A stretch of 64,000 nucleotides of DNA, from contig OZ024764.1 of NCBI GenBank assembly GCA_964016885.1, forward strand, positions 8,122,001 to 8,186,000. The letters run 5' to 3'. The notes under the pieces were generated by a model, which saw only the letters and a list, made by a program, of their open reading frames with translations, ran no database searches and was not told the DNA's origin. Both the position numbers and the translations under genes were made by a program. Below, one piece after another: positions 4,501-37,500 of this stretch (its first letter is position 1; every line of letters starts with the position of its first letter). Source of the DNA: Eledone cirrhosa (lineage: Eukaryota).

Positions 4501-7500
4501 CACATAAGACATTGCATCACACATAAGACCCATCTTATCTCACATAAGACATCTCATCTCTCACATACGGCCCATCTTATTACAATACCACCACCACGAC
4601 TAGCACTACTACTACTACTACTACTACTACTACTACTACTACTACTATTACTACCACCACCACCACTACTACTACCACTACCACCACCACCACTACTACT
4701 ACTACCACTAGCACTACTATTACTACCACCACCAGTACTACTGCCACCACCACCACCACCACCACTACTACTACTACCACTACCACCACCACTACTACTA
4801 CTACCACCACCACCACCATTACCACCACTACCACTACTACCACCACCACCACTACTACTACTACTACCACCACCACCACCACCACTACCACCACAACCTC
4901 CACTACTACCACCACCACTACCACCACAACCTCCACCACAACCACCACAACCACCACTACTACTACCACTACTACTACAACCACCACCACCACCACCACC
5001 ACAACCACCACCACCACCACCACCACCACTACACCACCACCACCACCACCACCACAACCACTACCACCACCACTACTACTACTACCACCACCACAACCAC
5101 CACCACCACTACTACTACTACCACTAGCACTACTATTACTACCACCACCAGTACTACTGCCACCACCACCACCACTACTACTACTACCACCACCATTACC
5201 ACCACTACCACTACCACCACCACCATACCACACCACTACCACTACCACCACAACCCCCCCTCCACTACTACTACTACTACTACTACTACTACTACTACTA
5301 CTACCACCACCACCACCACCACCACCACCACCACCACCACCACCACAACCACCACTACACCGCCACCGCCACCACCACCACCACCACCACTACTACCACT
5401 ACTACTACTACTACTACTACTACAGTTTACACAAGAACCTGATAGAGCATCTGAATGCCGAGATATTCCTCAACACCATCAGTGATATCAGTGTGGCTGT
5501 GGAGTGGATCAAACACACTTTCCTTTACATCAGGGTGCGTAAAAATCCTAAATACTACGGTACGTACCTTCTTCTTTCACCTTTATCTCATCAGCCCCCC
5601 CCCCTCCTCATCCAACCCCTACTTCTCATAATCATCCTTTCTCTCTATGCTCACTACTTCATCATCATTCATCATTATCCAGCAGCCTCAGCCGAAATGG
5701 ACTCAACAGTTTATCTCCACGTGGGTCTGTCGTTCATTGCCGTTGCCAAGTCCTGGATTTCAATACCAGAATCTCTGGAGATGACATCGGGATAGGAGAG
5801 CTTGTGGCCCCTGTTATTAGTGACTGCTTGTGGTTTCTAGAGCACTAATGGGGACACAGCCTCAGAGGTGGCACGATGGCAGTGGCCAGCAAATTGGGAT
5901 AGGAGAGCTTGTGGCCCCTGTTATTAGTGACTGCTTGTGGTTTCCAAAGCACTAATGGGGACACAGGCTCAGAGGTGGCACGATGGCAGTGGCCAGCAAA
6001 TCGGGATAGAAGAGCTTGTGGCCCCTGTTATTAGTGACAGTAATGACGACACAGCCTCAGAGGTGGCGCGATGGCAGTGGCCAGCAAATTGGGATAGGAG
6101 AGCTTGTGGCCCCTGTTATTAGTGACTGTTTGTGGTTTCTAGAGCACTAATGGGGACACAGCCTCAGAGGTGGCACGATGGCAGTGGCCAGCAAATTGGG
6201 ATAGGAGAGCTTGTGGCCCCTGTTATTAGTGACTACTTGTGGTTTCTAGAGCACTAATGGAGACACAGCCTCATAGATGGCACGATGGCAGGGGCCAGCA
6301 AATTGGGATAGGAGAGCTTGTGGCCCCTGTTATTAGTGACTGTTTGTGGTTTCTAGAACACTAATGGGGACACAGCCTCAGAGGTGGCACGATGGCAGGG
6401 GCCAGCAAATTGGGATAGGAGAGCTTGTGGCCCCTGTTATTAGTGACTGTTTGTGGTTTCTATAGCACTAATGGGGACACAGGCTCAGAGGTGGCACGAT
6501 GGCAGTGGCCAGCAAATCGGGATAGAAGAGCTTGTGGCCCCTGTTATTAGTGACACTAATGACGACACAGCCTCATAGGTGGCACGATAGCAGTGGCCAG
6601 CAAATTGGGATAGGAGAGCTTGTGGCCCCTGTTATTAGTGACTGTTTGTGGTTTCTAGAGCACTAATGGGGACACAGCCTCAGAGGTGGCACGATGGCAG
6701 GGGCCAGCAAATTGGGATAGGAGAGCTTGTGGCCCCTGTTATTAGTGACTACTTGTGGTTTCTAGAGCACTAATGGAGACACAGCCTCAGAGATGGCACG
6801 ATGGCAGGGGCCAGCAAATTGGGATAGGAGAGCTTGTGGCCCCTGTTATTAGTGACTGTTTGTGGTTTCTAGAACACTAATGGGGACACAGCCTCAGAGG
6901 TGGCACGATGGCAGGGGCCAGCAAATTGGGATAGGAGAGCTTGTGGCCCCTGTTATTAGTGACTGTTTGTGGTTTCTATAGCACTAATGGGGACACAGGC
7001 TCAGAGGTGGCACGATGGCAGTGGCCAGCAAATCGGGATAGAAGAGCTTGTGGCCCCTGTTATTAGTGACACTAATGACGACACAGCCTCATAGGTGGCA
7101 CGATAGCAGTGGCCAGCAAATTGGGATAGGAGAGCTTGTGGCCCCTGTTATTAGTGACTGTTTGTGGTTTCTATAGCACTAATGGGGACACAGCCTCAGA
7201 GGTGGCACGATGGCAGTGGCCAGCAAATTGGGATAGGAGAGCTTGTGGCCCCTGTTATTAGTGACTACTTGTCGTTTCTAGAGCACTAATGGGGACACAG
7301 CCTCAGAGGTTGCACGATGGCAGTGGCCAGCAAATTGGGATAGGATAGCTTGTGGCCCCTGTTATTAGTGACTGCTTGTGGTTTCCACAGCACTAATGGG
7401 GACACAGCCTCAGAGGTGGCACGATGGCAGTGGCCAGCAAATTGGGTAGGATAGCTTGTGGCCCCTGTTATTAATGACTGCTTGTGGTTTCTAGAGCACT

Positions 7501-34500: not shown

Positions 34501-37500
34501 GTATCAGAGCTGTGGTCTCTCAATTCAGTGATTCTTTCCTGAGACATTCTAACCACATGTCTGTAGTATCAGAGCTGTGGTCTCTCAATTCAGAGATTCT
34601 TTCCTGAGACATTCTAACCACATGTCTGTAGTATCGGAGCTGTGGTCTCTCAATCCAGAGATTCTTTCCTGAGACATTCTAACCACATGTCTGTAGTATC
34701 AGAGCTGTGATCTCTCAATTCAGAGATTCTTTCCTGAGACATTCTAACCACATGTCTGTAGTATAAGAGCTGTGATCTCTCAATTCAGAGATTCTTTCCT
34801 CTGACATTCTAACCACATGTCTGTAGTATCAGAGCTGTGATCTCTCAATTCAGAGAATCTTTGCTGAGACATTCTAACCACATGTCTGTAGTATCAGAGC
34901 TGTGATCTCTCAATTCAGAGATTCTTTCCTCAGACATTCTAACCACATGTCTGTAGTATCAGAGCTGTGATCTCTCAATTCAGAGATTCTTTGCTGAGAC
35001 ATTCTAACCACATGTCTGTAGTATCAGAGCTGTGATCTCTCAATTCAGAGATTCTTTCCTGAGACATTCTAACCACATGTCTGTAGTATAAGAGCTGTGA
35101 TCTCTCAATTTAGAGATTCTTTCCTCAGACATTCTAACCACATGTCTGTAGTATCAGAGCTGTGATCTCTCAATTCAGAGATTCTTTGCTGAGACATTCT
35201 AACCACATGTCTGTAGTATCAGAGCTGTGATCTCTCAATTCAGAGATTCTTTCCTCAGACATTCTAACCACATGTCTGTAGTATAAGAGCTGTGATCTCT
35301 CAATTCAGAGATTCTTTCCTCAGACATTCTAACCACATGTCTGTAGTATCAGAGCTGTGATCTCTCAATTCAGAGATTCTTTGCTGAGACATTCTAACCA
35401 CATGTCTGTAGTATCAGAGCTGTGATCTCTCAATTCAGAGATTCTTTCCTCAGACATTCTAACCACATGTCTGTAGTATCAGAGCTGTGATCTCTCAATT
35501 CACAGATTCTTTCCTCAGACATTCTAACCACATGTCTGTAGTATCAGAGCTGTGATCTCTCAATTCAGAGATTCTTTCCTGAGACATTCTAACCACATGT
35601 CTGTAGTATCAGAGCTGTGATCTCTCAATTCAGAGATTCTTTGCTGAGACATTCTAACCACATGTCTGTAGTATCAGAGCTGTGATCTCTCAATTCAGAG
35701 ATTCTTTCCTGAGATATTCTAACCACATGTCTTTAGTATCAGAGCTGTGATCTCTCAATTCAGAGATTCTTTGCTGAGACATTCTAACCACATGTCTGTA
35801 GTATCAGAGCTGTGATCTCTAAATTCAGAGATTCTTTCCTCAGACATTCTAACCACATGTCTGTAGTATCAGAGCTGTGATCTCTCAATTCAGAGATTCT
35901 TTCCTGAGACATTCTATCCACATGTCTGTAGTATCAGAGCTGTGATCTCTCAATTCAGAGATTCTATCCTGAGACATTCTAACCACATGTCTGTAGTATC
36001 AGAGCTGTGGTCTCTCAATTCAGAGATTCTTTCCTAAGACATTCTAACCATATGTCTGTAGTATCCGAGCTGTGGTCTCTCAATTCAGAGATTCTTTCCT
36101 GAGACATTCTAACTCGATGTCTGTAGTATCAGAGCTGTGATCTCTCAATTCAGAGATTCTTTCCTGAGACATTCTAACCACATGTCTGTAGTATCAGCGC
36201 TGTGATCTCTCAATCCAGAGATTCTTTCCTGAGATATTCTAACCACATGTCTGTAGTATCAGAGCTGTGGTCTCTCAATTCAGAGGTTCTTTCCTGAGAC
36301 ATTCTAACCACATGTCTGTAGTATCAGAGCTGTGATCTCTCAATCCAGAGATTCTTTCCTGAGACATTCTAACCACATGTCTGTAGTATCAGAGCTGTGG
36401 TCTCTCAATTCAGAGGTTCTTTCCTGAGACATTCTAACCACATGTCTGTAGTATCAGAACTGTGATCTCTCAATCCAGAGATTCTTCCCTGAGACATTCT
36501 AACCACATGTCTGTAGTATCAGAGCTGTGGTCTCTCAATTCAGAGGTTCTTTCCTGAGACATTCTAACCACATGTCTGTAGTATCAGAGCTGTGATCTCT
36601 CAATTCAGAGAAGTAGCGGCTCTACCTAGAGTGACTCTCTGATCTCTGAGCTACGCACTTTATTGGGTAACGTTATTCCAAAGTCCCTTCGGAGGAATCC
36701 CATTTCGGCTGCTTGTATTGACGACCCTATTCTTTCAGTTATTACCCAGCATTCATGACCATAAGCAAGGGTTGGCACAAATTCCGAATTAAATATCGCT
36801 TCATGGATATTTTCCTTACTGAAAATTTGTAAAGACTTTAATATTTAACGTGATGTAGTCATAGTGTTGTTTTGTACTAAATGTTTATAGTATCTTTACT
36901 GGTGGACAGATTGTTGTGAAAATTTACAATATTACAGTAAAGACTTTAATATTTAATGTGATGTAGTCATAGTGTTGTTTTGTACTAAATGTTTATAGTA
37001 TCTTTACTGGTGGACAGATTGTTGTGAAAATTTACAGTATTACAGTAAAGACTTTAATATTTAATGTGTTGTTTTGTACTTTTCAAGAATATCTTGCTAA
37101 TGTGGTTTCATGTGGTACAGGATGTTATATATTTATCTAATTTCTAGGTCAATCCTTGTCAAATGCTTTGGTCAATGCTGGAATTGTGAGTTTTGATAAA
37201 GTCCTTGATGCAAACCCAAGAGAACTTGAATTGGTGAGTACCAGACAACTTGTCTTGTGTGTGTATATATGTGTGTATATATATATGTATATATATATAT
37301 ATATGTATATATATATATATGTGTGTGTGTATATATATATGTATATATATATATGTATATATATATATAGAATTAACAACGAATATAGTGAAGAGTTTAG
37401 CGTAAAAGTTGGCGTCCATCAGGGCTCTGTTCTCAGCCCCCTACTATTTATTATTGCCCTTCAGGCTATAACAGAGGAGTTCAAGACAGGCTGCCCATGG

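What the first reader, a model, noticed from the sequence alone, without database searches (positions are those of the whole stretch)
5789..36611. Four RTE LINE copies have each tandemly amplified the segment encoding the RLRW(Y/F)GH motif
Seen: four arrays sit colinearly inside minus-strand RTE ORF fragments. They are 5789-7763 (107 bp, FAGHCHRA), 20097-21061 (80 bp, [10 protein letters not shown]), 27050-29213 (80 bp, [10 protein letters not shown]) and 31734-36611 (65 bp, [13 protein letters not shown], consistent with CpG decay of RSQLRYYGH). Each unit covers the homologous C-terminal GH motif, although the copies come from three divergent families and have different unit lengths. All four are antisense to HFM1. 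The sense copy at 38180-38280 is not expanded. Inference: this LINE segment is a recurrent satellite-seeding hotspot, perhaps through RT template slippage early in reverse transcription, an RNA/DNA structure, or a strand-biased repair process. Caveat: 5' truncation over-represents this 3' region, which raises the chance expectation.
Basis: partly seen in the sequence, partly recalled or inferred. Interest (0 to 1): 0.75.

Follow-up and report, generated by a model that had tools for sequence, protein, structure and literature searches.

The report
LINE-born minisatellites spreading between old copies
The same short stretch of several jumping-gene families has been repeated into tandem arrays inside many separate old copies across this animal genome, and the arrays likely spread from copy to copy through DNA repair that uses another copy as template, which would show one way satellite DNA reaches new places.

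Summary
The four arrays are real, colinear in minus-strand LINE 3' fragments within HFM1 introns, and each covers the GH codons. They are not four independent events. Each tandem junction recurs genome-wide (5,485, 13,307 and 277 exact matches), and two are seen in raw reads of other samples (51, 52). In 1.36 Mb of other DNA, 18 of 21 LINE-internal duplications cover GH (3.9 expected), but only about 9 origins are independent (6 cover GH; P 0.004-0.07). A4-type units are 96% alike between loci while their flanks are 79-86% alike (72). Variants cluster by chromosome region (86), and the 80-bp junction is absent from the four largest chromosomes. This points to rare seeding and spread by ectopic gene conversion, not repeated reverse-transcriptase slippage. 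Why GH is favoured is only partly explained. Strand bias is open: 7 of 7 arrays in HFM1 are antisense, but the unexpanded sense copy belongs to a family that rarely expands. The scan noted LINE-born satellites elsewhere in this genome before; the 8 notes shown (of 291) did not describe this convergence or spread.

The parts
5674..8047 (-). A1 host: 5'-truncated RTE-like LINE 3' fragment (family A1) with short-repeat tail
5786..7762 (-). A1 array, 107-bp unit, about 19 copies, GH codons 7 nt inside the unit's 5' edge; 3-nt microhomology at the borders
   Evidence: 277 exact junction matches genome-wide
8066..8137 (+). Short sense fragment of the A2/A3 family abutting the A1 host; starts inside the GH codons, not expanded
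19868..21064 (-). A2 host, subfamily II of the A2/A3 family, 5'-truncated at the array start
20097..21061 (-). A2 array, 80-bp unit x12, GH codons 11 nt inside the unit's 3' edge
21741..21985 (-).
26959..29563 (-). A3 host, subfamily I of the A2/A3 family
27050..29213 (-). A3 array, 80-bp unit x27, 99.4% alike within the array, same borders as A2; 4-nt exact microhomology
   Evidence: 5,485 exact junction matches
31586..36799 (-). A4 host, old RTE-like LINE 3' fragment (family A4)
31733..36611 (-). A4 array, 65-bp unit x75, 96% alike within the array and as alike to arrays at other loci
   Evidence: 13,307 exact junction matches
37370..38480 (+).
5424..5561 (+). HFM1/MER3 helicase exon; further exons near 12172, 18518, 23750, 31248, 37144, 39953, 43537, 56193

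Best explanation
These are members of dispersed minisatellite families that sit inside separately inserted, 5'-truncated LINE copies, share family-specific borders around the GH codons, and likely spread from one copy to another by ectopic gene conversion after rare founding duplications. Shown: fixed junctions at many loci with different truncation points and flanks; A4-type units far more alike between loci than their flanks; regional clustering of unit variants; junctions missing from or rare on the largest chromosomes. Inferred: a founding duplication forms at short microhomology; it expands locally by slippage or unequal exchange; during break repair an unexpanded or expanded copy invades an array-bearing copy, aligns out of register and copies the array; shorter units arise by deletion within older units; this happens mainly on small, probably recombination-rich chromosomes and chromosome ends. 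The GH segment likely wins because it lies 110-300 nt from the 3' end, in the middle of a typical truncated copy, with homology on both sides; this explains only part of the convergence. No function is implied.
For: Different 5' truncation points and flanks at 19 of 20 fetched 80-bp junction loci, same unit borders. 0 of 29 closest A3 relatives are expanded, so the array is not part of the master element. A4 type, single units: 96.7% within arrays, 96.2% between 7 arrays, 87.0% between 22 unexpanded copies, upstream flanks of the arrays 79-86%; 96.0% vs 82.2% in 5 arrays and 6 monomers not picked by similarity. One derived state in 7 of 7 arrays vs 4 of 22 monomers. A4 against an array about 270 kb away: units 97-100%, near flank 92%, far flank 78%, 3' flank 84%, different insertion site. 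L062 has subfamily I on both sides of subfamily II units. Unit variants cluster by region: 8 of 11 loci vs 2 of 26 (96-bp family) and 11 of 13 vs 3 of 21 (A1 family), P about 1e-4 each. Junction listings begin at C5, C12 and C9 whereas the native context has 100 matches in the first 63.7 Mb of C1.
Against: Inter-locus homogenisation is weak for A2 type (93.0 vs 90.4%) and absent for A3 type (96.2 vs 97.1%). In unpicked loci the derived-state test is not significant (5 of 5 vs 2 of 6, P 0.06). Only 1 of 27 arrays of the 80-bp type is a clear two-sided mosaic, and intermediate subfamilies blur others. Three different bases occur at the 80-bp junction, which suggests several independent origins at one microhomology. 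Homogenisation among arrays that formed independently would give similar numbers. The geometric null leaves P 0.005-0.07. The 65-bp junction does occur on C1, mostly near its ends. Recombination rates were not measured. The chromosome argument assumes that listings are in contig order, as they appear to be.
Confidence: 0.6

Rival explanations
1. Each array forms on its own at a microhomology-defined weak spot; arrays only homogenise each other afterwards.
For: Three junction bases at the 80-bp border and arrays in both subfamilies mostly matching their own flanks. The 96-bp family unit is bounded by a long imperfect direct repeat formed by two Arg-rich codon runs.
Against: Borders have only 3-4 exact nt in A1 and A2/A3, and longer direct repeats in the same copies are unused. 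A two-sided mosaic exists. The family B junction is a one-off.
Confidence: 0.17
2. A cis-acting feature at the GH codons (break or nick site, protein-binding site, internal priming site for the LINE's own enzymes) makes any unit that holds it self-amplify.
For: All 14 go-back joints among the 15 best joints shown (of 736) on an A4-family monomer hold one 25-nt core at GH. Five to six families converge. GH lies within about 45 nt of one border in each family. P stays 0.004-0.07.
Against: Most A4-family units nest in one 123-bp unit, so one founder can explain them (retention chance 0.05; mixed arrays). No shared hairpin, and GH hexamers are not clearly enriched in 64 non-RTE unit clusters (best: 6 vs 2.6 expected among six motifs tried). 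Family B carries the motif but 1 of 27 copies is duplicated. Protein-based detection favours the conserved motif.
Confidence: 0.1
3. Reverse-transcriptase slippage at insertion, or retrotransposition of a pre-duplicated non-autonomous element, puts the same junction into many copies.
For: Arrays sit in separately truncated copies with normal tails. Dispersal of TE-internal repeats by transposition is the textbook route (PMC6947457 section 3.1; LTR12 case in PMC3389668).
Against: No 80-bp junction on C1-C4 despite many family copies; young units in old flanks; regional variant clustering. Slippage as the one-off founding event cannot be excluded.
Confidence: 0.07
4. A transcription-strand-dependent process expands antisense copies only.
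For: 7 of 7 arrays within the HFM1 span are antisense, including 3 outside the window; unexpanded fragments are 4 sense and 4 antisense.
Against: One gene; Fisher P 0.05-0.08; confounded with family, since both GH-bearing unexpanded copies are family B. Selection against sense arrays in introns would give the same pattern (general knowledge). Same-strand pairs within sample blocks: arrays 4 of 6, monomers 91 of 142.
Confidence: 0.05
5. Assembly artefact.
For: Array lengths were not checked in long reads.
Against: Joints present in raw reads of other samples and in contigs of other runs; unit variants and higher-order patterns.
Confidence: 0.01

Closest known systems
SINE-derived satellites (sSat) of squamate reptiles, PMC10702118 (read: abstract, background, start of results, passages, whole discussion)
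   Same: Tandem units from part of a dispersed retroelement, terminal units running into the parent element, many loci, a few dominant variants, homogeneity between loci, subtelomeric preference.
   Different: Here the units come from the protein-coding 3' region of LINEs, usually with parent sequence on both sides; several families converge on a homologous segment; flank-versus-unit contrasts point to transfer between old insertions. The term 'gene conversion' does not occur in that paper's main text.
TE-derived tandem repeats in human, with hotspots in AluS and LTR12, PMC3389668 (passages); Alu minisatellites from short flanking direct repeats (Jurka and Gentles, Haber and Louis, as cited there and in PMC6947457; originals not read)
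   Same: Positional hotspots inside an element; local expansion after insertion; short direct repeats at borders.
   Different: No genome-region hotspot was seen there; LTR12 repeats were ascribed to transposition. Here junctions are fixed, region-restricted, and have only 3-6 nt of microhomology.
Duplication of part of a TE by unequal exchange between homologous copies ('first steps' model) and dispersal by transposition, reviewed in PMC6947457 section 3.1
   Same: Homologous TE copies act as recombination partners at the birth of a repeat.
   Different: The evidence here concerns spread after birth by copy-to-copy conversion rather than by transposition.

Membership tests
RTE-clade non-LTR retrotransposon (hosts) | Reverse transcriptase domain upstream of the C-terminal region | tested here: met
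   Pfam RVT_1 in the family B copy; RT-like frame read by eye in an A2/A3 relative. For A1 and A4 families only by eye.
RTE-clade non-LTR retrotransposon (hosts) | 3' tail of short tandem repeats, 5' truncation | tested here: met
   Trinucleotide tails and variable 5' ends.
RTE-clade non-LTR retrotransposon (hosts) | APE endonuclease and RT in one ORF; placement in the RTE clade by RT phylogeny | not tested
Retroelement-derived satellite of the sSat kind | Tandem units from part of a dispersed element with terminal units continuing into it | tested here: met
Retroelement-derived satellite of the sSat kind | Many loci with homogeneous units between loci | tested here: met
   Clear for the 65-bp type, weak or absent for the 80-bp types; many loci.
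Retroelement-derived satellite of the sSat kind | Subtelomeric preference | tested here: inconclusive
   Small chromosomes and ends of C1 and C7 in partial listings; no full map.
Retroelement-derived satellite of the sSat kind | Origin from a SINE | tested here: not met
   Units are LINE coding sequence; it works like an sSat but is not one.
Minisatellite born between 5-10-bp direct repeats (Haber-Louis type) | Exact flanking direct repeat of 5-10 bp | tested here: inconclusive
   6 nt in A4's window copy (5 of 6 in most monomers), 4 nt in A2/A3, 3 nt in A1; long imperfect repeat in the 96-bp family.

The most novel reading that the evidence does not exclude
The segment around the GH codons of RTE-like LINEs seeds self-propagating arrays that 'home' into unexpanded paralogous copies by biased gene conversion, a protein-free invasive repeat using old LINE copies as landing pads, convergently in five or six families and driven by a local DNA feature.
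Probability: 0.15. Interest if true: 0.8.

Novelty: new variant of a known kind. Interest (0 to 1): 0.52.

Why it matters
How a satellite reaches many unlinked loci is usually ascribed to transposition or circular DNA. Here every array keeps a dated, single-copy host on both sides, so the age of the unit can be compared with the age of its site. Young shared units in old, unrelated flanks, plus regional variant clusters, make copy-to-copy spread directly testable genome-wide and across individuals. The arrays could also serve as markers of recombination-active regions. No host function is indicated.

Tried and rejected
Array inherited in the master element: 0 of 29 closest A3 relatives expanded. 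Shared hairpin at GH: only the A2/A3 reference folds better than shuffles there (z -2.2/-3.2 as DNA); other families do not. Longest direct repeats do not mark the used junctions. GH hexamers as a general array motif: no clear enrichment in 64 non-RTE clusters. Family B 100-bp junction as a recurrent family: 1 match only. Strand concordance within blocks: too few pairs. A second exon gave no PDB match; gene identity came. Within-array identity for A4 was a script failure and was redone. The script stopped before its totals; lists for searches were curated by hand. Runs X1-X3 held only 0.18 of the words of the probe and are used only as laid. Literature: nine searches found no paper on RTE-internal arrays at this motif or in cephalopods; subscription journals are largely outside the library, and no supplementary files were opened, so repeat libraries there may list these units.
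Full report
Observation. The host gene is on the plus strand: one exon matches Ski2-like helicases, its best library hits are single-cassette proteins named HFM1 or MER3 in molluscs, and these map exons from 20 kb before the window to 56252. 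Tandem repeats fill 59% of the window. The genome is 3.0 Gb; earlier scan notes call it probably octopus, which I did not test.

Not four events. A2 and A3 share unit borders and belong to subfamilies II and I of one family. The sense copy at 37370-38480 and an antisense copy at 21741-21985, both unexpanded, belong to a further family B, in which 1 of 27 motif-bearing copies in my sample is duplicated, against 10 of 19 in the A4 family, 6 of 29 in the A2/A3 family and 2 of 4 in the A1 family.

The junctions recur. Exact patterns across the tandem joint match 5,485 times (80 bp), 13,307 times (65 bp) and 277 times (107 bp); reversed controls give 0. These count joints, not loci. Of 20 fetched 80-bp loci, 19 show the same borders inside separately truncated copies with 2-25 units; L076 was not resolved. 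None of the 29 closest A3 relatives is expanded. Among the 19 other best matches, 10 A1 relatives carry the 107-bp array and 4 A4 relatives carry arrays of 65, 65, 96 and 123 bp; those searches favour arrays ending at the query's end, so I did not use them for position statistics. Raw RAD reads of three other samples hold the 80-bp joint in 429, 792 and 450 reads (14, 7, 14 start places; about 1 in 100 of local depth).

Position test. I took 1.36 Mb from C19-C27 outside the window and its flanks: 760 kb at preset positions and 600 kb beside blocks rich in tandem repeats. Four natural copies served as references. Of 21 duplication events with units up to 200 nt, 18 cover the GH codons (3.9 expected from coverage); of 13 unit types, 10 do (P 9e-6; 7e-4 if only the last 400 nt count). 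Left out there: events over 200 nt (263, 267, 439 nt and a longer one on which one search stopped) and a dimer of the 46-nt unit. Most A4-family units (65, 70, 99, 116, 123, 124) nest in one another and two arrays mix unit sizes, so they may share one founder. Counting them once and adding the 267-nt event gives 6 of 9 origins, 2.1 expected, P 0.004; nulls that require flanking homology or weight by copy number squared give P 0.005-0.07. A protein-level screen of 297 arrays added two GH-covering families (96 bp, three blocks, 359 joints genome-wide; 265 bp, one locus) and two non-GH arrays (47 bp; a weak 82-bp match) missed by the DNA scan; that screen favours the conserved motif. Other non-GH units lie outside the sample (58 bp; an upstream array in L120). 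Reads laid on an A4-family monomer peak sharply at the segment, and all 14 go-back joints among the 15 best shown of 736 hold a 25-nt core at GH; deletion from a 123-bp founder would keep the core in the five short types with chance 0.05. A control LINE of the window (RT, endonuclease and zf-RVT domains) also has a recurrent 145-bp internal array 300-440 nt from its 3' end in two blocks, and 84 of 189 arrays in the sample fall in unit clusters seen in two or more blocks: family-specific recurrent arrays are a general trait of this DNA. Verdict: a real but moderate preference, amplified by copying.

How the junction spreads. If reverse transcription made the joint, or a pre-duplicated element jumped, joints should follow the family over all chromosomes. 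The native context has 7,856 matches, 100 of them in the first 63.7 Mb of C1, and 20 of the 39 best A3 relatives lie on C1-C4. Yet the first 100 joints listed run from C5 to C19; the 107- and 96-bp listings start at C12 and C9. The 65-bp joint occurs on C1, mostly near its ends. This reading assumes listings in contig order. Unit-versus-flank ages: single A4-type units are 96.7% alike within arrays, 96.2% between 7 arrays on different sites, 87.0% between 22 monomers, while the arrays' upstream flanks are 79-86% alike; in loci not picked by similarity 96.0% (5 arrays) against 82.2% (6 monomers). One CpG-decay state is in 7 of 7 arrays and 4 of 22 monomers (P 2e-4; unpicked 5 of 5 vs 2 of 6, P 0.06, which included a mixed array, gave 8 of 9). 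A4 against an array about 270 kb away shows a gradient of 97-100, 92 and 78% from unit to far flank with different insertion sites; A1 has 96-99% relatives 35 and 200 kb away with other 3' flanks, one sharing its 5' neighbourhood. L062 has subfamily I on both sides of subfamily II units. Variants cluster regionally on both strands: 8 of 11 loci in the first 5 Mb of C25 vs 2 of 26 elsewhere, and 11 of 13 on C14-C15 vs 3 of 21 (loci counted by hand from the first 100 rows, groupings chosen after seeing them). Against: the A2 type shows a weak contrast (93.0 vs 90.4%), the young A3 type none (96.2 vs 97.1%); 1 of 27 arrays is a clear mosaic; three bases occur at the 80-bp joint, so several origins at one microhomology are likely as well.

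Mechanism. Best reading (0.6): rare founding duplications at 3-6 nt of microhomology, local expansion, then out-of-register ectopic gene conversion between paralogous copies, mostly on small chromosomes and ends that are probably recombination-rich (inferred, not measured). The GH segment lies 110-300 nt from the 3' end and median 3'-complete copies are about 240-440 nt long in the three well-sampled families, so it is central in typical copies; this accounts for part of the convergence. No shared hairpin, no use of the longest direct repeats, no clear enrichment of GH hexamers in 64 other unit clusters. What seeds the founders, including a one-off RT slip, is not resolved.

Strand. Within HFM1 all 7 arrays are antisense, 3 of them outside the window; unexpanded fragments are 4 and 4 (Fisher P 0.05-0.08). 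One gene, confounded with family; open.

Known versus new. Closest are squamate sSats (PMC10702118), human TE-derived repeats with internal hotspots (PMC3389668, passages) and the models reviewed in PMC6947457 (passages and section 3.1). PMC9659126 (passages) has no mention of RTE; the first third of PMC13282606 covers octopus repeat content without such arrays. Nine searches found no report of this case (listed under Tried and rejected); supplements were not read. An earlier scan note (e1-9515023) describes arrays from other parts of LINEs in this genome, in line with my non-GH units. New here: LINE-coding units with fixed borders in several families at a homologous segment, and evidence for transfer between old insertions. 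A new variant of a known kind; interest 0.52.

Noticed in passing
window 48610-54170: Apparently intact two-ORF LINE on +: 621-aa ORF with a weak zinc-knuckle match and 1152-aa ORF with endonuclease, RT and zf-RVT domains, sitting between two 72-bp arrays; several 3' fragments of the family lie elsewhere in the window.
   Followed up: partly
window 3475-4477, 24028-25170, 46716-48521, 54172-54455: A 72-bp unit forms four arrays with shared flanks; the same unit has 17 arrays in 14 sample blocks.
   Followed up: partly
window 37680-37815: Family B and the A2/A3 family carry a PHD-like cysteine-rich insert after the RT domain (Pfam PHD, E 1e-5).
   Followed up: no
window 7885-7925; L122, L124, L127, L131, L133, L134, L137, L138: A second small duplication with a trinucleotide insert upstream of GH recurs in A1-family copies with and without the 107-bp array.
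   Followed up: partly
G000 C19 35.36, 37.10, 38.63, 39.75 Mb (listing): Four 96-bp arrays within 4.4 Mb show the same spacing pattern of exact matches, one inverted: whole-array copying or segmental duplication.
   Followed up: no
L005:3339 to 1559: A strongly supported go-back joint of 1,781 nt in raw reads of three samples, a possible large tandem unit of the A2/A3 family.
   Followed up: no
window 61164-62651: 495-aa open frame with a 33-bp in-frame repeat and a glutamine-rich tract beyond the last mapped HFM1 exon.
   Followed up: no
L263 (C25 about 8.094 Mb): Inverted relative of A1 sharing the array and at least 280 nt beyond the LINE's 5' end but not the 3' flank.
   Followed up: partly
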